From the NCBI GenBank assembly GCA_039794085.1, contig JBDIWC010000038.1, forward strand, positions 1 through 39,980: a DNA stretch of 39,980 bases. Direction: 5' to 3'. How positions within the stretch are numbered: position 1 is the stretch's first letter; the number at the start of each line of letters is the position of its first letter. The translations under genes and the position numbers were made by a program. The stretch is from Gemmatimonadales bacterium (GTDB taxonomy: Bacteria; Gemmatimonadota; Gemmatimonadetes; Gemmatimonadales; GWC2-71-9). The notes beneath the pieces are model-generated. The model made no database searches and had not been told where the DNA came from. It saw only the letters and a list, made by a program, of their open reading frames with translations. Positions 3,880 to 39,980 of the stretch are shown in pieces.

Positions 3880-4013
3880 GCGGTCTTGCGCCCCTATGGG
3901 GCGCAGAAGAGTTGCGAGTGCTTCCTGCTCCCACGGCTGAAGCCGTGGGCCATGTTCTTCGGCCGCTCCGCGGCCGGGATTCCGGCTTCGGTGCCAGGAC
4001 CTCCTCGATGGAC
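3880..4013 (+). repeat. Composite palindromic element containing CCCACGGCTGAAGCCGTGGG (copy 1)
   Basis: Inverted homolog at 26297-26429; lies between convergent genes. Confidence 0.8.
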
Positions 4014-5508: not shown

Positions 5509-5578
5509 GCGGGGAACTCCGGTCGAGGGTGTGAGCAATCTAAGGACACTCTGATCAACTGAGGAGACGACCAATGCC

Positions 5579-5606
5579 CGTCATTCCCGCCCGCGCGGGA
5601 ATCCAT
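5579..5606 (+). repeat. Single CGTC-type palindromic repeat
   Basis: CGTCATTCCCGC-CCGC-GCGGGAATCCAT stem-loop. Confidence 0.75.
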
Positions 5607-6717: not shown

Positions 6718-6749
6718 GGATCAATGCTACCGCCAAAGCAGGGAGTAGG

Positions 6750-6893
6750 GAAGTTTGAAGTTCGAAGTTTGAAGTAGGGGCGAATGGCATTCGCCCGGAA
6801 TTCGGGATCCGAGCCCCTTACGGAGCGTCACCCCGGCGGCAGCCGGGGTCCATCTCCACCCGGGTATGGATTCCGGCGTGCGCCGGAATGACG
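6750..6893 (+). repeat. Mosaic repeat unit: GAAGTTY heptamers + GTAG-type REP (6774-6796) + CGTC palindrome doublet (6826-6893)
   Basis: GTAGGGGCGAATGGCATTCGCCC; CGTCACCCCGGCGGCAGCCGGGGTCC...ATGGATTCCGGCGTGCGCCGGAATGACG. Confidence 0.85.
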
Positions 6894-7050
6894 GCCCGTG
6901 GACAGCCGAAGGGTCGCCTTGTGGCCCGGCCGGATGCGGCCCATCTTTCGGCATCATGCCCGATCCCGGCGACTGTCACGCAGCCCTCTCGTCTTCACGC
7001 CGGCCTTCGGGCATTTCACGTCACCGGATTCGCAGTTCCGGACCGCCGAC

Positions 7051-8469
7051 GTGAGCGCGTCTCCCGCCGTCGCCCGTCGCGGGTTCGATCGCTCGATCAT
7101 CGAGGGTCCTCTCCCCGCGGCCGTCTGGAAGCTGGCCTGGCCCACGATGCTGCAGAATGTTATTGGGGGGCTGCAGGGGATCGTGGACCACATCATGGTC
7201 GGGCATTTCGTGGGATTCACCGGGAACGCCGCCATTGGTGTGTCGTGGCAGATCTTCCTCGTGGTGATGGTCTTCGTCAGTTCCCTGTTCACCGGGATGA
7301 GCGTGCTGGTGGCGCGGTTTGCCGGCGCCGGCGACCGGGACCGTGCCGACCGGGCGGTGTACCAGGCCTTCCTCACCTCGGGGGGGATCTCGGTCGGCAT
7401 CCTCGCCCCCCTCGGATACTTCCTGGCTCCGACCCTCCTCGGCTTCATCAATGCCGCACCCGAAGTCCAGGCAGAGGCGCTGGGTTATTTGCGGACCATG
7501 TTCGTGTTCAGCTTTGGCATGATGACGTTCTTCCTCATGGGAGGGGCGCTCCGCTCGGCGGGAGATGCTCGGACACCACTCCGCTGGGGCATCACCCTCA
7601 CCATCCTGAACATCACCTTCAACGCCATCCTGATCAGCGGCCTCGGTCCGATCCCCGCCTTCGGCACCACGGGCGCCGCGATGGGCACCGTGATCGCCGG
7701 GGGGGTGTTGAGCATCCTGGCCCTGCACCACCTGCTCACCGGTCGCTGGGTGGTCGGGTTTCCGCGCGGGATCGGCTGGGCTCCGGACTGGAGCATCATC
7801 CGGGCGCTCTTCCGCTTCGGGCTTCCCACCGGCCTGCAGGGGATCGCGATGAACGTGGGCGGCGTCCTCCTGATCCGCTTCATCGGCGCCCTGCCGCACA
7901 GCGCCGAGGCACAGGCGGCCTGGGCCATCGGATACACGGAGCTGTTTTCGCTGATCACCTGGACCTCGATCGGGCTGATGGGCGCCACCGCCGCGGTGGC
8001 CGGCCAGAACATCGGGGCGGGACATCCCGACCGGGCGGCCCAGGCGGTGCACGTGGCCAGCCGGATCGGCGTGAGCGGTGCCATCGTTGTGGGTCTTCTC
8101 TTTCTCACCGTGCCCCGTCTGCTGCTTTCGGCGTTTGGCATGACCGATCCCCTCGTCGTGGACCTGGCCGTGGAGTTGCTCGGCTTTCTGAGCGTCTCCG
8201 GCCTCTTCATCACCGTGGCGCTCGCCTACACCGGAGGTCTTCAAGGGACGGGTGACACCCGAGGGCCCTTCACGATCTCCGTCATTTCCCAACTGGTGAT
8301 TCCCCTCGGGATCTGTGGCGTTCTCCAGGCCGCCGGCGCCCTCACCCCGACCCGGATCTGGACCGCGGTCCTGCTCGGTCACATGGCGCGGAGCGGGCTC
8401 AGCATCCTCCGGTTCCGGCAGGGGATCTGGCGGACGATCCGGGTGGATATCGAGGCGGTCCGGACCTGA
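7051..8469 (+). CDS. MATE family efflux transporter
   Basis: IIEGPLPAAVWKLAWP, VDHIMVG, ALRSAGDARTPL, GQNIGAG, LQGTGDT; many TM helices; GTG start at 7051 is approximate. Confidence 0.9.
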   Translation: MSASPAVARRGFDRSIIEGPLPAAVWKLAWPTMLQNVIGGLQGIVDHIMVGHFVGFTGNAAIGVSWQIFLVVMVFVSSLFTGMSVLVARFAGAGDRDRADRAVYQAFLTSGGISVGILAPLGYFLAPTLLGFINAAPEVQAEALGYLRTMFVFSFGMMTFFLMGGALRSAGDARTPLRWGITLTILNITFNAILISGLGPIPAFGTTGAAMGTVIAGGVLSILALHHLLTGRWVVGFPRGIGWAPDWSIIRALFRFGLPTGLQGIAMNVGGVLLIRFIGALPHSAEAQAAWAIGYTELFSLITWTSIGLMGATAAVAGQNIGAGHPDRAAQAVHVASRIGVSGAIVVGLLFLTVPRLLLSAFGMTDPLVVDLAVELLGFLSVSGLFITVALAYTGGLQGTGDTRGPFTISVISQLVIPLGICGVLQAAGALTPTRIWTAVLLGHMARSGLSILRFRQGIWRTIRVDIEAVRT

Positions 8470-8480
8470 CCTTCACGGAG

Positions 8481-8548
8481 CGTCACCCCGGCGAAAGCCG
8501 GGGTCCATTCCCACCCGGGCATGGATTCCGGCGTGCGCCGGAATGACG
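8481..8548 (+). repeat. CGTC palindrome doublet (empty form)
   Basis: Left hairpin CCCCGGC-GAAA-GCCGGGG, short spacer, right hairpin ATTCCGGC-GTGC-GCCGGAAT, ends CGTC/GACG. Confidence 0.9.
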
Positions 8549-8585
8549 GCGCTTCGGTATCCGAAACCCCGTACCCTAACGGCGA

Positions 8586-8971
8586 GTCACCCCGGCGGAA
8601 GCCGGGGTCCGTTCCCATCGCGTCTGCTTCTACAACAACCCTTCATACAGATCTCGCCACTCCGGGTTCTCCTTCTCAATCAACTCCACCTTCCACCGTC
8701 GCTTCCATTCCTTGATCGCCTTCTCTCTGGCGATGGCCGCGCCCATCGTTTCGTGCAGCTCATACCATACCAGCGTGTGGACGCCATACTTTCGGGTGAA
8801 TCCGGGAACGAGATCCTGCTTGTGTTCCCAGACGCGCTTGATGATGTTCGAGGTCACACCAACATACAAAGTGCCGTGGCGGCGAGCGGCGAGCATGTAC
8901 ACACAGGGACGTTTCATCCGCTGGTCTCCTTCCCACCTCAGGCATGGATTCCGGCGTGCGCCGGAATGACG
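8586..8971. mobile_element. CGTC doublet with GIY-YIG gene between its two halves (putative autonomous element)
   Basis: Left half 8586-8610 and right half 8944-8971 match the halves of the empty doublets and enclose only the nuclease gene. Confidence 0.65.
8630..8917 (-). CDS. Stand-alone GIY-YIG nuclease (95 aa)
   Basis: CVYMLA..LYVGVT..RVWEHK..AIAREKAIKEWKRRWK..NPEWRDL; GGAG RBS upstream of ATG 8917. Confidence 0.92.
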   Translation of the reverse strand: MKRPCVYMLAARRHGTLYVGVTSNIIKRVWEHKQDLVPGFTRKYGVHTLVWYELHETMGAAIAREKAIKEWKRRWKVELIEKENPEWRDLYEGLL

Positions 8972-12271: not shown

Positions 12272-12295
12272 CGGACTCTCCTGACGGAGGAAGTT

Positions 12296-12875
12296 GTAGG
12301 GGCGAATCATATTCGCCCGGGCTCCGGAATCCGAGCGCACATCGGAGCGTCGCCCCGGCGGAAACCGGGGTCCATTCTCACCCGGGCATGGATTCCGGCG
12401 TGCGCCGGAATGACGGCCCGTACGCACCTGAAGTCCAGGCCCTCTCCGCACCGTCCCGCATGCACCGGCGGCCAGGCCCTTCACGGAGCGTCACCCCGGC
12501 GGAAGCCGGGGTCCATTCTCACCCCGGGCATGGATTCCGGCGTGGAGTTCGGGAAATCCCGGGGCTCACGCCCCTTGCTCGGCCCTGTGAGGTGGCTGAC
12601 GCCACCCGGCACGCCCTCACCACCGGGGCCCTACCGCCTGCCAGCCACCGCCTATCGCCTGCAAGGGAGCGTCACCCCGGCGGTAGCCGGGGTCCGTTCC
12701 CACCCGGGCATGGATTCCGGCGTAGACTTCGGGAAATCCCGGGGCTCACGCCACCCGGGAACGCCCTCACCCCTGGTCCCTCTCCCGCCCGGCGGGGGCT
12801 GGAGGAGTGAGTGGAGAGGAGTGAGGAGAGAGAGGAGATTCGATCTCACTTCTCACTCCTCTTCCCTCTCTCCTC
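12296..12875 (+). repeat. Dense repeat cluster: GTAG REP (12296-12318), three CGTC doublets (12348-12415, 12489-12543, 12670-12723), family-B fragments, CCCTCACCCC-type motif and purine/pyrimidine heptamer hairpin (12801-12875)
   Basis: Direct sequence matches to other copies in the window. Confidence 0.85.
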
Positions 12876-15041: not shown

Positions 15042-16418
15042 ATGACGCACCCCACCATCGACCCCGCCACGGGGCAGACCATCGCCACTCACCCCGAACT
15101 CACGACGCCTGAGCTCCGCAGCAAAATCGCCGAGACCCACAAGACATTCCTCCACTGGCGCGACATCCCCATTGCCTCCCGCTCCGAGCCGATGCGCGCC
15201 GCCGCCGGGATCCTCCGGGACCGGGCTCGGCCGCTTGCCGAACTCATGGCGCGCGAAATGGGGAAGCCGGTGACCCAGGGGCGGAGCGAGGTGGAGAAGT
15301 GTGCCTGGGTCTGCGAGTACTACGCGGAACACGCGGAGAGCTTTCTGGCCCCGGAGGTGGTCTCCACCGACGCCGCTCGGAGCTATGTCACCTTCCGGCC
15401 GCTCGGCGTCATCTTCGCCATCATGCCGTGGAACTTCCCGCTCTGGCAGGTATTCCGTGCCGCGGCCCCGGCCCTCATGGGTGGGAACGGGATGGTACTC
15501 AAGCACGCGGAGAACGTGCCGGGGTGCGCCGAGGCGATCGCGGAGATCTTCCGGGACGCCGGATTTCCGGTGAGTCTCTTTCAGAATCTGGCCATCGGGC
15601 GGGACCGGGCGAAGCTGGTGATCCGGCACCGGCAGGTCGCCGCCGTCACCTTCACCGGGAGCACCGCCGCGGGCAAGGCGGTGGCGAAGGAGGCCGGAGC
15701 CCGTCTCAAGAAGTGCGTCCTGGAGCTCGGCGGGAGCGACCCCTATCTGATCCTGGCCGATGCCGATCTCGATCGCGCCGTGGAAGCGTGTGCCACGAGC
15801 CGGCTCATCAATGCGGGGCAGAGCTGCATCGCGGCCAAGAGATTCCTCGTGGTGGAGCGGGTGCGCGCCGAGTTCGAGCGGCGGCTGGTGGAGCGGATGA
15901 GCCGAGTGCGGATGGGGAACCCCCGGGAGGAGAGCACCGAACTCGGACCCCTGGCCCGCGCCGATCTCCGGGAAACCCTGCATGAGCAGGTGGATCGGAG
16001 CATCGAGAAGGGAGCGCGACTGCTGCTCGGGGGAACCGTGCCCGAGGGTCCCGGCTTCTTCTATCCGCCCACGGTCCTCACCGACGTGAAGAAGGGGATG
16101 CCGGCCTACGGCGAAGAGCTGTTCGGACCGGTCGCCGCGATCATTCCGGTCAAGACCGCGGCCGCGGCCATCAGGGCGGCCAACGATTCCCCCTTCGGGC
16201 TCGGCGCGGCGGTGTTCACCGGCAACACGGAGCGCGGTGAGGAGATCGCCGCCACGAAGCTGGAGGCGGGGTCGTGCGTCGTGAATGAGTTCGTGCGGTC
16301 GGACCCTCGGCTTCCGTTCGGCGGTATCAAGGAGAGCGGGTTCGGGCGCGAGCTGGGACGATACGGGATGCTGGAGTTTCAGAATGTGAAGACGGTGGTG
16401 GTAGGGGGCAGGGAGTAG
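15042..16418 (+). CDS. NAD(P)-dependent succinate-semialdehyde dehydrogenase-like aldehyde dehydrogenase
   Basis: IMPWNFP, LKHA, FTGS, LELGGSDP, NAGQSCIA, EELFGP, PFGGIKESGFGRE. Confidence 0.9.
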   Translation: MTHPTIDPATGQTIATHPELTTPELRSKIAETHKTFLHWRDIPIASRSEPMRAAAGILRDRARPLAELMAREMGKPVTQGRSEVEKCAWVCEYYAEHAESFLAPEVVSTDAARSYVTFRPLGVIFAIMPWNFPLWQVFRAAAPALMGGNGMVLKHAENVPGCAEAIAEIFRDAGFPVSLFQNLAIGRDRAKLVIRHRQVAAVTFTGSTAAGKAVAKEAGARLKKCVLELGGSDPYLILADADLDRAVEACATSRLINAGQSCIAAKRFLVVERVRAEFERRLVERMSRVRMGNPREESTELGPLARADLRETLHEQVDRSIEKGARLLLGGTVPEGPGFFYPPTVLTDVKKGMPAYGEELFGPVAAIIPVKTAAAAIRAANDSPFGLGAAVFTGNTERGEEIAATKLEAGSCVVNEFVRSDPRLPFGGIKESGFGRELGRYGMLEFQNVKTVVVGGRE

Positions 16419-16435
16419 GGAGTAGGGAATAGGGT

Positions 16436-16641
16436 GTAGGGGCGAACGGCGTTCGCCTGCGCCCCGGAATCCGAGCCCCTCACGGAGCGTCACCCCGGCG
16501 AAAGCGCCCTCACCCCCGGCCCCTCTCCCAGAGGAAGAGGGGGGATCGGGCCCTCGTAATACCCGGCGTCCATTCCCCGCCCGAGCATGGATTCCAGCGT
16601 ACGCCGGAATGAGGGCCATGGGCACCTGGAATCCCGCCCGC
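16436..16641 (+). repeat. ~205-bp mosaic repeat, copy 1 (GTAG REP + CGTC doublet interrupted by CCCTCACCCCCGGCCCCTCTCCC hairpin element)
   Basis: Direct repeat of 18457-18662; preceded by AGTAGGG heptamers. Confidence 0.85.
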
Positions 16642-16678
16642 ATGCCGGAGAGACGGACCGTGCGAGTGGCACTGAGCC

Positions 16679-18367
16679 CTACCTCGCGGTTCCTGCGGCG
16701 TGATCCTGGGCCCCGTCGAGCTCCGTGGCCCTCCGCCGAGCCGCGTCCACGACGGCGTGTGGCGCGCCCGCCGCCTCGAGGAGTGCCAGGGCAGTCCGGC
16801 TGCTGGCCGGTCCCTTTCGCCGACGATAGTCGAAGGTCAGCCCCTCCGGTCCCATCGTTTCCCGAAAGTGCCAGGGCTCATAGACATCGCGTAGCATCGG
16901 CACCAGTTCCCCATCGTGCGTGGCCACGATCACCGCGTGGTCCGATCGCTGGCCGCAGCTATCTAACAGCGCGCGGAGCACCGCCTCGCCCGCCGCCAGA
17001 CGCTCGATGGTGTTGGTGCCCCGGAGGAGTTCATCGAGGAGGAAAATCGTCGGGGTGTGGCTCTGTGATTCCTGCAGGAGCTCCACGACCCCTTCGGCCT
17101 CGACCTGGTAGTAGCTCTTTCCCGCCGAGAGGTCGTCGCTCCGCCCGATGAGGCTCCGGACGCGAAAGGCGCGACCGTGCCAGGACGTGGCAGGACAGGT
17201 GTTCAGGGATCTCGCCAGCACGGCGGCGATTCCGATCGACCGCAGGTAGGTGGTCTTCCCCGACATGTTGGCGCCGGTAATCACCATTCCGACACCAGCC
17301 TCCAGAGTGGCGTCATTCCCCACCGGCACCTTGATGAGTGGATGCCACACGCCGACCAGCTCGGCCCGGGTCTCTTCCGTCCACCCGGGGGCCACCCACG
17401 ATCGGGGTTCAGCCCGGAGAGACGCAACCGTCAGGGCAACATCCACGTCACCCACCCAGGTAGCGACCCTTTCCAGCACCGGAGCCAGTCGGCGCAGATG
17501 GCGTGCACTGAACACCAGGGCATTGGCATCCAGGACCAGGAGGAGGTTGAGATACTCATACACACTCGCAACGATATCGCCCGATGACACCGGATCACGG
17601 CTGACCCACGACGCGATTCGCCGCAGGGGGCGGAGGCGCTCCACCTCTTGGGCAACGAGATCCCCCTCTTCGTCCCCCATCCCGGGCACCCGCACCAGCC
17701 TCTCCGCCGTTCTGATGAGGGGGCCCATCTGCCGGATGGGAGCCAGGATGGAGGGGATCTGCCACGCTGTGGCCATCCGAACCACCAGGTTGATGACCGC
17801 GAGGGCACCGACCACCAGAAGAGCGCGCGGTTCGAAGGCGCTCACGACCGCGCTCGCCACCATCGTCCCCGCGAGGAAGGGGAAGAACCAGTACCACCAG
17901 CGTGCCTGGATCAGATCGGGCCGGGTTATCACCCAGAGACCCCGGCCCATGGGTCGGCCCGCGGAGGCGAGCTGGATCCCGACCTCCTCCCGCAACTGCT
18001 GCTCCCGCCCGAAGCGCTGCGCGAGCCGTTCGAGGTGCGGCGTGTCGCTCCATGCGGTGGCCGCCCGAAGGCGTCGATAGAGCATCTGACGCCCGAGCCC
18101 GGTGTGGGTCCGGTCGACAGTGGCGAGGACGGCATCGAGATCGAGGTCGGACCAAGTGCGGTCGTCGAGACCCTGTGCGAGACCCCGTCCCCGCTCCAGC
18201 TCCTCCCATGCCTCCGCCGCGTCGTCGTCGTCCAGCCGTCGCGGTGAGAGCGGCACTCCCCATGCCCGTCGGAGACGAGCGACGAGTTGCCGCCTCTGCC
18301 ACCAGGAGTGCATGGCAAGCGCGGCACCAGCCAGCGCCAGGATGGGGATCACCACGGCAGGATTCAT
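16679..18367 (-). CDS. Membrane-anchored MutS-family ATPase (domain V; MutS-related protein)
   Basis: N-terminal and central TM helices; ITGANMSGKTTYLR Walker A, GKSYYQVE, LDELLRGTN, ATHD; lacks mismatch-binding domain. Confidence 0.85.
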   Translation of the reverse strand: MNPAVVIPILALAGAALAMHSWWQRRQLVARLRRAWGVPLSPRRLDDDDAAEAWEELERGRGLAQGLDDRTWSDLDLDAVLATVDRTHTGLGRQMLYRRLRAATAWSDTPHLERLAQRFGREQQLREEVGIQLASAGRPMGRGLWVITRPDLIQARWWYWFFPFLAGTMVASAVVSAFEPRALLVVGALAVINLVVRMATAWQIPSILAPIRQMGPLIRTAERLVRVPGMGDEEGDLVAQEVERLRPLRRIASWVSRDPVSSGDIVASVYEYLNLLLVLDANALVFSARHLRRLAPVLERVATWVGDVDVALTVASLRAEPRSWVAPGWTEETRAELVGVWHPLIKVPVGNDATLEAGVGMVITGANMSGKTTYLRSIGIAAVLARSLNTCPATSWHGRAFRVRSLIGRSDDLSAGKSYYQVEAEGVVELLQESQSHTPTIFLLDELLRGTNTIERLAAGEAVLRALLDSCGQRSDHAVIVATHDGELVPMLRDVYEPWHFRETMGPEGLTFDYRRRKGPASSRTALALLEAAGAPHAVVDAARRRATELDGAQDHAAGTAR

Positions 18368-18456
18368 GGAAGGGAAGTGTGAAGTGTGACGGTGGAAATG
18401 GGAAGTAGGGGCGACGAGATAAACCGTGGGCGGTAGGAAGGGACAGGGAATGGGGC

Positions 18457-18662
18457 GTAGGAGCGAATCACATTCGCCCGGGCACCTGAACCTGAGCCCC
18501 TCACGAAACGTCACCCCGGCGAACGCGCCCTCACCCCCGGCCCCTCTCCCAGAGGAAGAGGGGGGATCGGGCCCTCGCAATACCCGGCGTCCATTTCCCG
18601 CCCGAGCATGGATTCCGGCGTACGCCGGAATGACGGCCCGTGGGCATCCGAAGCCCGCCCGC
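18457..18662 (+). repeat. ~205-bp mosaic repeat, copy 2
   Basis: Direct repeat of 16436-16641. Confidence 0.85.
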
Positions 18663-19643: not shown

Positions 19644-19815
19644 ACAATGAACAATGAACAATGAACAATAACAATGAACAATCAACAGCGGGTGTAGGGG
19701 CGACGCGCCAGCATCGCCCGAGCGTCGGATGGCAACGAAAGGGCGTAGGGGCGAATCACATTCGACCGGGTCTATTCCCATCCTGGCATGGATTCCGGCA
19801 TGTGCCGGAATGACG
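19644..19815 (+). repeat. ACAATGA heptamer run + two GTAG REPs (19694, 19745) + right half of CGTC doublet (19788-19815)
   Basis: Direct matches to other copies; a similar heptamer run lies at 18686-18723. Confidence 0.8.
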
Positions 19816-21014: not shown

Positions 21015-21029
21015 GCTCTCCTGGCGGAG

Positions 21030-21191
21030 GAAGTGTGAAGTTGGAAGTTGGAAGTTTGAAGTTCGAAGGGGGAAAAGGGAAGTTCGAAGTTGGAAGTGTG
21101 AAGTTCGAAGGAAGCAGAAGCCCCGAACACACATCGGAGCGTCACCCCGGGAACGCCGGGGTCCATTCCCACGCGGGCATGGATTCCGGCG
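21030..21191 (+). repeat. GAAGTKB heptamer run (about 11 units, 21030-21110) + truncated CGTC doublet (21140-21191)
   Basis: Visible periodicity and match to doublet consensus. Confidence 0.8.
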
Positions 21192-21306: not shown

Positions 21307-21376
21307 GGGAGTAGTCCCTTACGGACAAGATTGAACACAAGAAAGCAACAATATTTTGGGTGACGCTCGGAAACCC
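21307..21376. repeat. AT-rich dispersed repeat, copy 1
   Basis: First 34 bp identical to 39767-39800; similarity continues through GCAACAATATTTT and CGGAAACCC. Confidence 0.85.
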
Positions 21377-21480
21377 TTACGGGCAGCGAGTTTGAGGGAG
21401 TTTGGGAAGGCATCCAACTTTGAGGCCTCTCGGGAAATGCACTCGAGTCGCGGAGCGCGCCGTGACCAGGCGATTGGTGT

Positions 21481-21621: not shown

Positions 21622-21684
21622 GCCTCTTTGGTTCCGGCTCTGCCGGCATAGGGAATAGGGAGTAGGGGCGAGCGGCATTCGCCC
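21622..21684 (+). repeat. 32-bp hairpin repeat copy 2 (21622-21653) followed by GTAG REP (21662-21684)
   Basis: Matches 96-127 and the other GTAG REPs. Confidence 0.85.
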
Positions 21685-21710
21685 TGATTGCTCCTCGAAT
21701 CGGTACAGGA

Positions 21711-25180: not shown

Positions 25181-25237
25181 CGTCATCCCGGCGAACGCCG
25201 GGATCCATGTAAACGAGGGCTTGAGTAGGACCGGTCG
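25181..25237 (+). repeat. CGTC palindrome plus 41-bp direct repeat (25197-25237; second copy 25899-25939)
   Basis: 38/41 identity; the two copies bracket the TA pair. Confidence 0.8.
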
Positions 25238-26205: not shown

Positions 26206-26486
26206 GCCGGAATCCCGGCCGCGGAGCGGCCGAAGAACATGGCCCACGGCTTCAGGATCACGCATGTGTCGCTCTGAACGGTTCTCAGGATAGGAGGTCC
26301 ATCGAGGAGAGCCTCGCCTCGAAGCCGGAATCCCGGCCGCGGAGCGGCCGAAGAACATGGCCCACGGCTTCAGCCGTGGGAGCAGGAAGCATCCAGACAT
26401 TCGCGCGCCCCGTAAGGGCGCAAGACCGCAGAGCTGCTCATGGGACACAGGACCTCGACTTCCTTCGTGTCTTCGTGTCTTCGTGT
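26206..26486 (-). repeat. CCCACGGCTTCAGCCGTGGG element: partial copy (26206-26254) and full copy (26297-26429), then CTTCGTGT x3
   Basis: Inverted homolog of 3880-4013. Confidence 0.8.
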
Positions 26487-34318: not shown

Positions 34319-34819
34319 GTGATCACCATGCGACGGCGACCTCTGTGGCCCCTGCTCCTCGTTGCCACCGTTGGCGCCTGCGCCACCCTCCCGCAGATCG
34401 CTGCTCTCCGGCAGGTATCCTTTTTCCTGGCGGGAGTCCAGGATGCCCGCCTGGCCGGGGTTCCCCTCAACCGCATCGCCTCCTACCGGGACCTGACCGC
34501 CACCGAAGTCGGCCGCCTGGGACTCGCCATCGCACGCAACGATCTTCCCTTCGAGTTCCGGGTGGACGTCCAGGCAGAGAACCCGGCGGAGAACCGCACA
34601 ACGGCGACGATGGTGCGTCTCACCTGGGCTCTCCTCCTCGACGACAAGGAGACCATTAATAGCGTCCTCGACACGAGCCACGTCCTTCCCCCGGGCCGGC
34701 CGGTGATCATTCCCGTGCGGATGCGGCTGAACCTCCGGGAGTTTTTCAGCGGGCCCGCCGAGAGCCTCGTGAACCTCGCGGCCGGCGCAACGACCGCGAT
34801 GATGCGCGGCGGCGCATAG
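34319..34819 (+). pseudogene. 5' part of a putative lipoprotein gene, interrupted at about 34785
   Basis: GAGGAGG RBS, lipobox VGAC; C-terminus apparently displaced to 37147-37422. Confidence 0.65.
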
Positions 34820-37146: not shown

Positions 37147-37422
37147 AAGGAGACCATCAACGGTGTCCTCGACTCGAGCCTCGTCCTCCCCCCGGGACAG
37201 CCTGTTGTCATCCCCCTCCTGATGCGGGTCAACCTCCGGGATTTTTTCAGCGGACCCGCCGAGAGCCTCGTGAACCTCGCGGCCGGTCTCGCGGGCCTCA
37301 ACGCCGACCCAACCAGGATCGCGCTTCGGGCGGTGCCCACCATCGACACCCCCGTCGGCCCCATCGGGTATCCCTCTCCGATCACCATCCTCAGCCGGAC
37401 GGTGGGCCCCGGTCGACCCTGA
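37147..37422 (+). pseudogene. 3' part of the lipoprotein gene (diverged 140-bp overlap with 34646-34785)
   Basis: KETINGVLDSSLVLPPGQPVVIP..FFSGPAESLVNLAAG then LAGLNADPTRIALRAVPTIDTPVGPIGYP to stop; no own start. Confidence 0.7.
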
Positions 37423-39766: not shown

Positions 39767-39837
39767 GGGAGTAGTCCCTTACGGACAAGATTGAACACAA
39801 AACGGCAACAATATTTTTGGGCGCCCCCCGGAAACCC
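39767..39837. repeat. AT-rich dispersed repeat, copy 2
   Basis: Matches 21307-21376. Confidence 0.85.
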
Positions 39838-39980
39838 GCTCCAGCCGTGCGTGTGACGGCGTCTGTGACGGCATCCCACTTGGGGCTCTTCAGGGTTTCG
39901 CGTGGGTGAGAGACACGTCGATCGGGCGTTGTGCGCACGGTGCGAGGGGACGCCCCGGAGTCCGGGGACCCGCCCTGGGG

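What the first reader, a model, noticed from the sequence alone, without database searches (positions are those of the whole stretch)
8481..8971. GIY-YIG gene nested inside a CGTC palindrome doublet, with empty doublets scattered through the window
Seen: the empty unit is left hairpin + short spacer + right hairpin (6826, 8481, 12348, 12489, 12670, 16488, 18509, 21140; halves at 5579, 19788, 25181). At 8586-8971 the same two halves enclose only a 95-aa GIY-YIG gene. This is the geometry of RAYT/REPIN or autonomous element/MITE pairs, but with a GIY-YIG nuclease instead of an HUH or DDE transposase. Inference: the nuclease mobilises or maintains this repeat family.
Basis: partly seen in the sequence, partly recalled or inferred. 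Interest (0 to 1): 0.78.

Follow-up and report, generated by a model that had tools for sequence, protein, structure and literature searches.

The report
Ssn nuclease gene inside hairpin doublet
A small nuclease gene sits between two DNA hairpins of a repeat family scattered through this genome; it is a new example of the Ssn single-strand nuclease and repeat pairing published in 2025, and a sister genome lacks it at this spot, so it was likely gained or lost recently.

Summary
A 95-aa GIY-YIG gene (8630-8917, minus strand) lies between two outward-facing xGTC hairpins; the genome has 168 related hairpins, 0 in a reversed control. Of the eight listed 'empty doublets', three are intact; the rest are cut short or interrupted. 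The system is published: Ssn nucleases with SRM repeats (Chenal 2025), whose repeats are CGTC-1 REPs (Di Nocera 2013). The protein is 51-53% identical to the Neisseria gonorrhoeae orthologue, keeps its Y/Y/E residues and groups with it (100/97). That paper already proposes the RAYT-like, mobile-element idea. Added here: a sister genome has other repeats and no ssn at this site, and its own ssn is another lineage elsewhere. Three intact Ssn-like paralogues each sit in their own hairpin family; a fourth lacking the Glu has none. Against a MITE model: 134 of 168 hairpins are unpaired, and 2 of 17 gain/loss junctions lie near a tag. This scan found the same system on other genomes before.

The parts
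8630..8917 (-). ssn gene, 95-aa single-domain GIY-YIG nuclease (P0001); Y7, Y18, R28, H32, E65 align with Y6, Y17, R27, H31, E64 of the Neisseria orthologue; 55.6% GC against about 67% in neighbouring genes
8944..8971 (-). upstream SRM/CGTC-1 hairpin (tag outside, 8-bp stem, 4-nt loop, CCA tail), ending 26 bp before the ATG
8585..8612 (+). downstream hairpin, slightly decayed (AGTC tag, altered tail); keeps the GTC before and the C after the stem
8612..8617 (+). 6-bp direct repeat, inner end of the left hairpin
   Evidence: sequence
8930..8935 (+). 6-bp direct repeat next to the SD-like AAGGAG of the gene; removing the 318 bp between the two copies gives a 69-bp unit with 64 of 68 identities to the empty doublet
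8481..8548 (.). intact empty heterodimer doublet, 37 bp from the filled one; folds as one long hairpin (z -5.4)
6826..6893 (.). intact empty doublet; also present at the orthologous site of sister genome G001
12348..12415 (.). intact empty doublet with mismatches; present in G001
12489..12544 (.). doublet with truncated right hairpin (complete in G001)
12670..12723 (.). doublet with truncated right hairpin
16488..16614 (.). doublet whose left hairpin is split by an unrelated CCCTC-type hairpin
18509..18635 (.). second copy of the split doublet (part of a 207-bp direct repeat around the MutS-V gene)
19788..19815 (-). single right hairpin with spacer remnant
21140..21191 (.). doublet with altered left loop and truncated right hairpin
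5579..5606 (+). single hairpin of the CCCGCG-stem subtype
25181..25208 (+). single hairpin, left half of the 78-bp doublet subtype

Best explanation
This is an Ssn-family nuclease gene framed by its CGTC hairpin repeats; the protein likely binds each hairpin as single-stranded DNA and cuts just upstream of its tag, and repair of those cuts likely helps the repeats and the gene spread by recombination, not by precise transposition. Shown here: gene, hairpins, family placement, absence at the sister genome's orthologous site, and fast turnover of repeat positions. From the family (PMC11893778, four homologues tested): ssDNA-only, strand-specific cutting a few nucleotides 5' of the hairpin. Inferred: this copy is active. 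It arrived horizontally (low GC, nearest relatives 77% from unrelated metagenomes, the sister genome's copy only 63% and elsewhere). It came to lie inside a resident 68-bp doublet, either by insertion or recombination at a 6-bp microhomology, or because the local doublets are deletion leftovers of an older filled copy that the sister lineage lost. Nick-triggered gene conversion or template switching between repeats would explain the ragged, mosaic intergenic regions.
For: Best reciprocal-type match: the N. gonorrhoeae orthologue hits the window gene first in this genome (E 4e-32; the other three 6e-22 to 8e-12). One clade holds the window protein, two Neisseria proteins, the G001 copy and 20 metagenome relatives at 100/97, apart from the other three paralogues. 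Hairpins flank 68 of 68 relatives on one side and 56 of 68 on both; shuffled flanks give 17 of 1360 and 0 of 1360. In 61 family genomes, 3 of 3 with a close-clade ssn (>=60%) carry 65-207 copies, against 2 of the other 58. Each intact paralogue has only its own hairpin family within 650 bp (4, 4, 3 copies); the paralogue with Met for the catalytic Glu has none. G001 has 94-96% DNA identity in the two flanking genes but other repeats in this gap. None of the 80 relatives lies beside MATE or tricorn genes. At 43 sites where only one genome has a hairpin, 25 are replacements by other DNA, 7 are long cargo and 11 are clean.
Against: No activity was measured for this protein. G018 (97% complete) has 74 copies but only a 44% Ssn-like protein, and G049 (88% complete) has 9 copies and no hit. 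Local enrichment near the gene (15 copies within 20 kb, 1.2 expected) is not specific: GTAG repeats are also enriched on this contig (6 of 45) and contig C19 has 14 copies with no ssn. G001 has the same doublet subtype on the two contigs matching this window (6 of its 10 hits) with no ssn found there. The spacer-matches-inner-flank relation was not seen by eye in G047, G001 or the 4 metagenome loci with an empty doublet. The genome also has 5 Y1-transposase matches and many 78-bp doublets carry an outer inverted repeat, so other movers are available. Kin genomes are not independent.
Confidence: 0.7

Rival explanations
1. True autonomous element and MITE pair, the first reader's model: the nuclease excises or copies the doublet as a unit with defined ends, and empty doublets are its non-autonomous derivatives.
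For: The filled unit minus 318 bp between two 6-bp repeats is 64 of 68 identical to the empty doublet. 9 of 11 copies of this spacer subtype lie on the gene's contig. Tags-out is the commonest arrangement among relatives (27 of 56 two-sided loci). The gene is absent from the sister's orthologous site.
Against: 134 of 168 hairpins are unpaired. Only 2 of 17 junctions lie within 8 bp of a tag, and no constant target duplication was seen by eye in the 11 clean cases. 29 of 56 two-sided loci have other orientations. GIY-YIG chemistry is hydrolytic, with no known strand-transfer step (established knowledge, recalled).
Confidence: 0.15
2. Host-domesticated ssDNA restriction, as in Neisseria: the nuclease cuts incoming or exposed ssDNA at the repeats to tune recombination, while the repeats spread by other means (Y1 or IS transposases, slippage, gene conversion) and the gene merely hitch-hikes.
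For: Shown for N. meningitidis (PMC11893778, Fig. 4 text). Repeats persist without a close ssn in G018. Outer inverted repeats around many 78-bp doublets and 5 Y1 matches offer other movers.
Against: The gene is not kept at one locus or in one lineage between sister genomes, which fits a selfish passenger better than a settled host function. Natural competence of this host was not tested. No Y1 locus had a family-A hairpin within its fetched flanks (0 of 5).
Confidence: 0.12
3. Chance or assembly: an ordinary repair GIY-YIG gene fell into, or was mis-joined into, a transcription-terminator-like REP doublet.
For: Run contigs break at the repeats and none spans the region. The repeats lie in intergenic gaps, often between convergent genes.
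Against: 68 of 68 relatives carry such hairpins. One run contig joins hairpin, gene and hairpin with no differences (8521-8970). The protein falls in the SsnA clade. A wrong placement would move the cassette, not undo the pairing.
Confidence: 0.03

Closest known systems
Ssn nucleases with NTS/SRM repeats (SsnA of Neisseria meningitidis; CDD cd10448; Chenal et al. 2025, PMC11893778)
   Same: Single-domain GIY-YIG of 94-95 aa; 51-53% identity to the N. gonorrhoeae orthologue; Y/Y/E kept; SRM hairpins on both sides; the published SRM pattern matches the upstream hairpin and 8 others in the window.
   Different: Stem variants (CCGGC rather than CCCGC core; heterodimers). The host is a high-GC environmental bacterium. 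The genome holds three intact Ssn-like paralogues, each in a different hairpin family. No activity or transformation role was tested here.
CGTC-1 REP family, HH dimers (Di Nocera et al. 2013, PMC3733652; includes Neisseria dRS3 and Rickettsia RPE-6)
   Same: CGTC tag, 8-bp stem starting with A, 4-nt loop, CCA tail, tags-outside dimers with a short spacer, intergenic, interleaved with other repeats.
   Different: Here most units are single (134 of 168) rather than dimers. That paper found no dedicated enzyme; the gap was filled by the Ssn paper.
RAYT/REPtron with REP and REPIN elements
   Same: A small enzyme gene flanked by its cognate hairpins; doublets; several enzyme-repeat pairs in one genome; local clustering around the gene.
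   Different: RAYT is an HUH/Y1 tyrosine transposase with GTAG tags and a covalent DNA intermediate (recalled). This protein is a GIY-YIG hydrolase and has no Y1 domain.

Membership tests
Ssn (cd10448) | small single-domain GIY-YIG protein | tested here: met
   95 aa; only Pfam hit is PF01541; no NCBIfam hit
Ssn (cd10448) | homology to Neisseria SsnA at E<1e-10 | tested here: met
   E 4e-34 and 53% to the N. gonorrhoeae orthologue, best hit in both directions. The N. meningitidis protein itself was not fetched; the orthologue has the paper's length (94 aa) and residue numbers.
Ssn (cd10448) | falls in the SsnA clade | tested here: met
   branch support 100/97; 50 rows, 94 columns, midpoint root; no one-clade test was run
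Ssn (cd10448) | residues needed for cutting (Y6, Y17, E64) | tested here: met
   Y7, Y18, E65
Ssn (cd10448) | SRM repeats flanking the gene | tested here: met
   upstream hairpin and the adjacent downstream doublet match the published pattern; the hairpin nearest the stop codon is decayed and does not match
Ssn (cd10448) | CDD assignment cd10448 | not testable with these tools
   no CDD library available
Ssn (cd10448) | sequence-specific, ssDNA-only cleavage | not testable with these tools
   needs purified protein
CGTC-1 REP | CGTC tag, 8-bp stem, 4-nt loop, CCA tail | tested here: met
   definition from PMC3733652 passages; its Figure 2 consensus was not seen
CGTC-1 REP | predominantly HH dimers | tested here: inconclusive
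   tags-out pairs exist (17) but 134 of 168 are unpaired at the 2-mismatch threshold; decayed partners may be missed
RAYT/REPtron | HUH/Y1 transposase domain | tested here: not met
   the genome's Y1 matches are on other contigs
Autonomous element/MITE pair | defined ends and constant target duplication at filled versus empty sites | tested here: not met
   2 of 17 junctions within 8 bp of a tag; 25 of 43 differing sites are replacements. The two genomes are 93% identical, so later decay could blur ends.
Autonomous element/MITE pair | empty unit is an internal deletion of the filled unit | tested here: inconclusive
   fits in this window (64 of 68); not seen in G047, G001 or 4 metagenome loci

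The most novel reading that the evidence does not exclude
Ssn genes are selfish mobile elements of a third REP-spreading kind. Each paralogue seeds and reshuffles its own hairpin family, mostly near itself, by nick-induced recombination, and moves between species by recombining into resident doublets. This genome holds three such pairs and one dead orphan, and host genes between repeat clusters (MutS-V here) get moved as well.
Probability: 0.35. Interest if true: 0.55.

Novelty: new member of a known kind. Interest (0 to 1): 0.22.

Why it matters
The system is already described, so the find itself is ordinary. Its value is as a test bed for the question the Ssn paper leaves open: does the nuclease spread its repeats? 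This genome and its sister offer a filled and an unfilled orthologous site, two non-orthologous ssn genes, and three enzyme-hairpin pairs plus a Glu-less orphan in one cell. These allow direct cross-specificity and mobility tests and may supply ssDNA cutters with new specificities.

Tried and rejected
NCBIfam and PDB sequence searches with the protein gave nothing. A search for ssn gene fragments elsewhere in the genome, as deletion derivatives, gave only short chance-level hits outside the repeats. An autonomous IS behind the outer inverted repeat was not found: 21 copies, 8 within 120 bp of a hairpin, one closed pair, and no repeated long ORF; its IS5-like look is recalled, not tested. Joints in run contigs that go back about 490-520 bp could suggest a circle, but they are single contigs that likely come from other repeat copies, so I rejected them as evidence. 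The lack of cover of the gene in X4 is a filter hole and no evidence. G002 (same genus, 78% MATE protein) has a different gene after MATE and no copy of this spacer subtype, so it cannot polarise gain versus loss. The G000 site matching G001's ssn falls in a contig gap (C13 end, C86 start), so a second copy there cannot be excluded. No RNA run held the stretch beyond a 0.07 share, so expression was not tested. My generic hairpin finder missed the bulged families of the other paralogues; they were counted with own patterns. Structure and complex prediction were not run.

Full report
Observation. The window is contig C38 of a 4.16-Mb, 66.8% GC assembly in 115 contigs. Between a MATE gene (6898-8469, +) and a tricorn-type protease gene (ending 9014, -) lie an intact 68-bp doublet (8481-8548), a 37-bp linker, a left hairpin (8585-8612), a 95-aa ORF on the minus strand (8630-8917) and a right hairpin (8944-8971). 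The ORF is a single GIY-YIG domain, has an SD-like AAGGAG 8 nt before its ATG (sequence), and is 55.6% GC against about 67% for its neighbours. Each hairpin is tag, 8-bp stem, 4-nt loop, CCA tail. Of the eight listed doublets three are intact, three have a truncated right half and two have the left half split by another repeat. The published SRM pattern gives 9 window hits against 0.65 in 100 shuffles. A family pattern gives 168 genome copies at up to 2 mismatches (183 at 3) and 0 in two controls; 17 tags-out pairs, 134 unpaired.

What it is. Chenal et al. 2025 (PMC11893778) describe the Ssn family. I read the abstract, introduction, results up to the family section, discussion, one methods section, keyword passages and 1 of 14 supplementary files. 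These are single-domain GIY-YIG proteins (cd10448) whose genes are flanked by SRM hairpins, 71% on one side and 42% on both. Four homologues cut ssDNA near their own hairpin. The N. meningitidis enzyme cuts only the tag strand, a few nucleotides upstream, needs Y6, Y17 and E64, and lowers transformation by repeat-bearing DNA. The paper notes that NTS-ssnA-NTS resembles IS elements and REP-associated transposases and proposes it drove repeat expansion. Di Nocera et al. 2013 (PMC3733652; passages only) define CGTC-1 REPs with this anatomy, equate them with Neisseria dRS3, report tags-outside dimers and found no dedicated transposase.

Membership. Among 5 Neisseria genomes searched, 2 had matches; the N. 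gonorrhoeae protein is 94 aa and 53% identical over the match, E 4e-34. It hits the window gene best of four genes in this genome, and Y6, Y17, R27, H31, E64 are all kept. A tree of 50 proteins was built from 30 of 32 genome loci (one left out for a stop, one not recovered) and 20 of 80 metagenome relatives. It puts the window protein, both Neisseria proteins, the sister genome's copy and the metagenome relatives on one branch at 100/97 (few columns, midpoint root). CDD assignment and activity could not be tested.

Gene-repeat link. I took the best 80 of 482 metagenome relatives (65-78% identity) and dropped 12 for short flanks. Of 68, all have a hairpin within 200 bp on at least one side and 56 on both; base-shuffled flanks give 17 and 0 of 1360. 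Orientation varies: 27 tags-out, 15 and 4 direct, 10 tags-in. None of the 80 lies beside MATE or tricorn. Some loci are near-duplicates. In 61 genomes of the family the repeat occurs in 5: 150, 207, 74, 65 and 9 copies. The only three with an Ssn of 60% or more are among them; G018 (74 copies) has only a 44% protein and G049 (9 copies, 88% complete) none. This genome has four Ssn-like genes. Three keep the catalytic residues, and each has only its own hairpin family within 650 bp (families of 168, 31 and 77 copies). The fourth has Met for the Glu, host-like GC and no hairpin. The word 'paralog' does not occur in the main text of the Ssn paper, and five literature searches showed no follow-up on mobility; unread supplements may bear on this.

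Mobility. Sister genome G001 has MATE and tricorn in the same order at 94-96% DNA identity, but the gap holds 280 bp of other repeats and neither ssn nor these hairpins. Its closest ssn is 63% identical in protein and 65% in DNA and lies at another locus. Two other paralogues, by contrast, are syntenic and nearly identical between the two genomes. The matching G000 site falls in a contig gap. In 625 kb of G001 (about a sixth of the genome, chosen for holding hairpins, so biased), 504 kb aligned at 93.3%. Collinear gaps held a hairpin only in G001 36 times, only in G000 7 times and in both 9 times; 14 of 15 hairpins inside aligned blocks were shared (output partly cut, head counts seen). Of the 43 one-sided sites, 25 are replacements, 7 long cargo and 11 clean. 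Of 17 junctions beyond an outward tag, 2 are within 8 bp, 14 lie 14-61 bp out and 1 falls inside the motif. So positions turn over fast but not as a unit with ends set by the predicted cut.

Filled versus empty unit. Removing the 318 bp between two 6-bp direct repeats inside the filled unit gives 64 of 68 identities to the neighbouring empty doublet. This spacer subtype is local: 9 of 11 copies on C38. G001 has it too, 6 of 10 hits on the two contigs that match this window, with no ssn found there. Either the ancestor had the gene here and G001 lost it, or the gene entered a resident doublet in G000; G002 could not decide. The same relation was not seen in G047, G001 or 4 of 28 tags-out metagenome loci that had an empty doublet nearby. 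C38 is also rich in GTAG repeats, and C19 has 14 family copies without an ssn, so local enrichment alone proves little.

Mechanism and verdict. Most likely (0.7) an active Ssn that nicks ssDNA beside its hairpins, with host repair and recombination spreading and reshuffling repeats and gene; the cutting is inferred from the family and the spreading is untested. A precise element/MITE pair (0.15), a settled host restriction role with repeats moved by other enzymes (0.12) and chance or mis-assembly (0.03) are the rivals. Earlier notes of this scan reached the same family call on other genomes; my reading was formed before I looked, and they are not independent support. Other notes on this genome name the host as Gemmatimonadales; I did not test that. 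New member of a known kind; interest 0.22.

Noticed in passing
window 16411-18638; G001:C240 (L039): The MutS-V-domain gene (about 16680-18360, -) sits between two 207-bp direct-repeat clusters here. In G001 it lies about 4 kb away, next to the tricorn start, and the site here has a single cluster. A gene appears to have moved between repeat clusters; direction unknown.
   Followed up: partly
G000:C3:120409-120681, C22:47712-47963, C73:14744-14995: Three further Ssn-like genes. C3 and C22 each sit in a different bulged xGTC hairpin family (31 and 77 copies; 11 of 31 within 20 kb of the C3 gene). C73 has Met for the catalytic Glu, no hairpins, and is kept in G001.
   Followed up: partly
window 6739-6799, 12283-12321, 16423-16461, 18444-18482, 19741-19770, 21026-21109, 21649-21687: Intergenic gaps are mosaics of several repeat families: GTAG-tagged hairpins (45 in the genome), runs of 7-nt units, and CCCTC-type hairpins, nested in one another.
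   Followed up: no
G001 loci L043-L079; window near 5550 and 25230: Many 78-bp doublets carry an outer inverted repeat of about 15 bp, 20-60 bp beyond the tags. It may be a separate miniature element carrying the doublet; no autonomous partner was found in G000.
   Followed up: partly
window 3919-4013, 26206-26255, 26297-26391: A 95-bp unit repeated in inverted orientation 22 kb apart at 95% identity, with a third 50-bp perfect copy; a separate recent repeat family.
   Followed up: no
window 21307-21420 and 39767-39881: A 54-bp near-identical, AT-rich repeat with a more diverged extension, 18.5 kb apart; looks like the end of an insertion sequence.
   Followed up: no
window 34646-34785 and 37147-37286: A 140-bp direct repeat at 86% identity, 2.5 kb apart, not examined.
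   Followed up: no
G018 (L010): 74 copies of the window's hairpin family, but the only Ssn-like gene found (44%) is flanked by a different short hairpin; repeats may outlive their gene.
   Followed up: partly
G044:C9, C45, C19 (L205, L207, L208): One Neisseria genome has three ssn matches, one with an internal stop.
   Followed up: no
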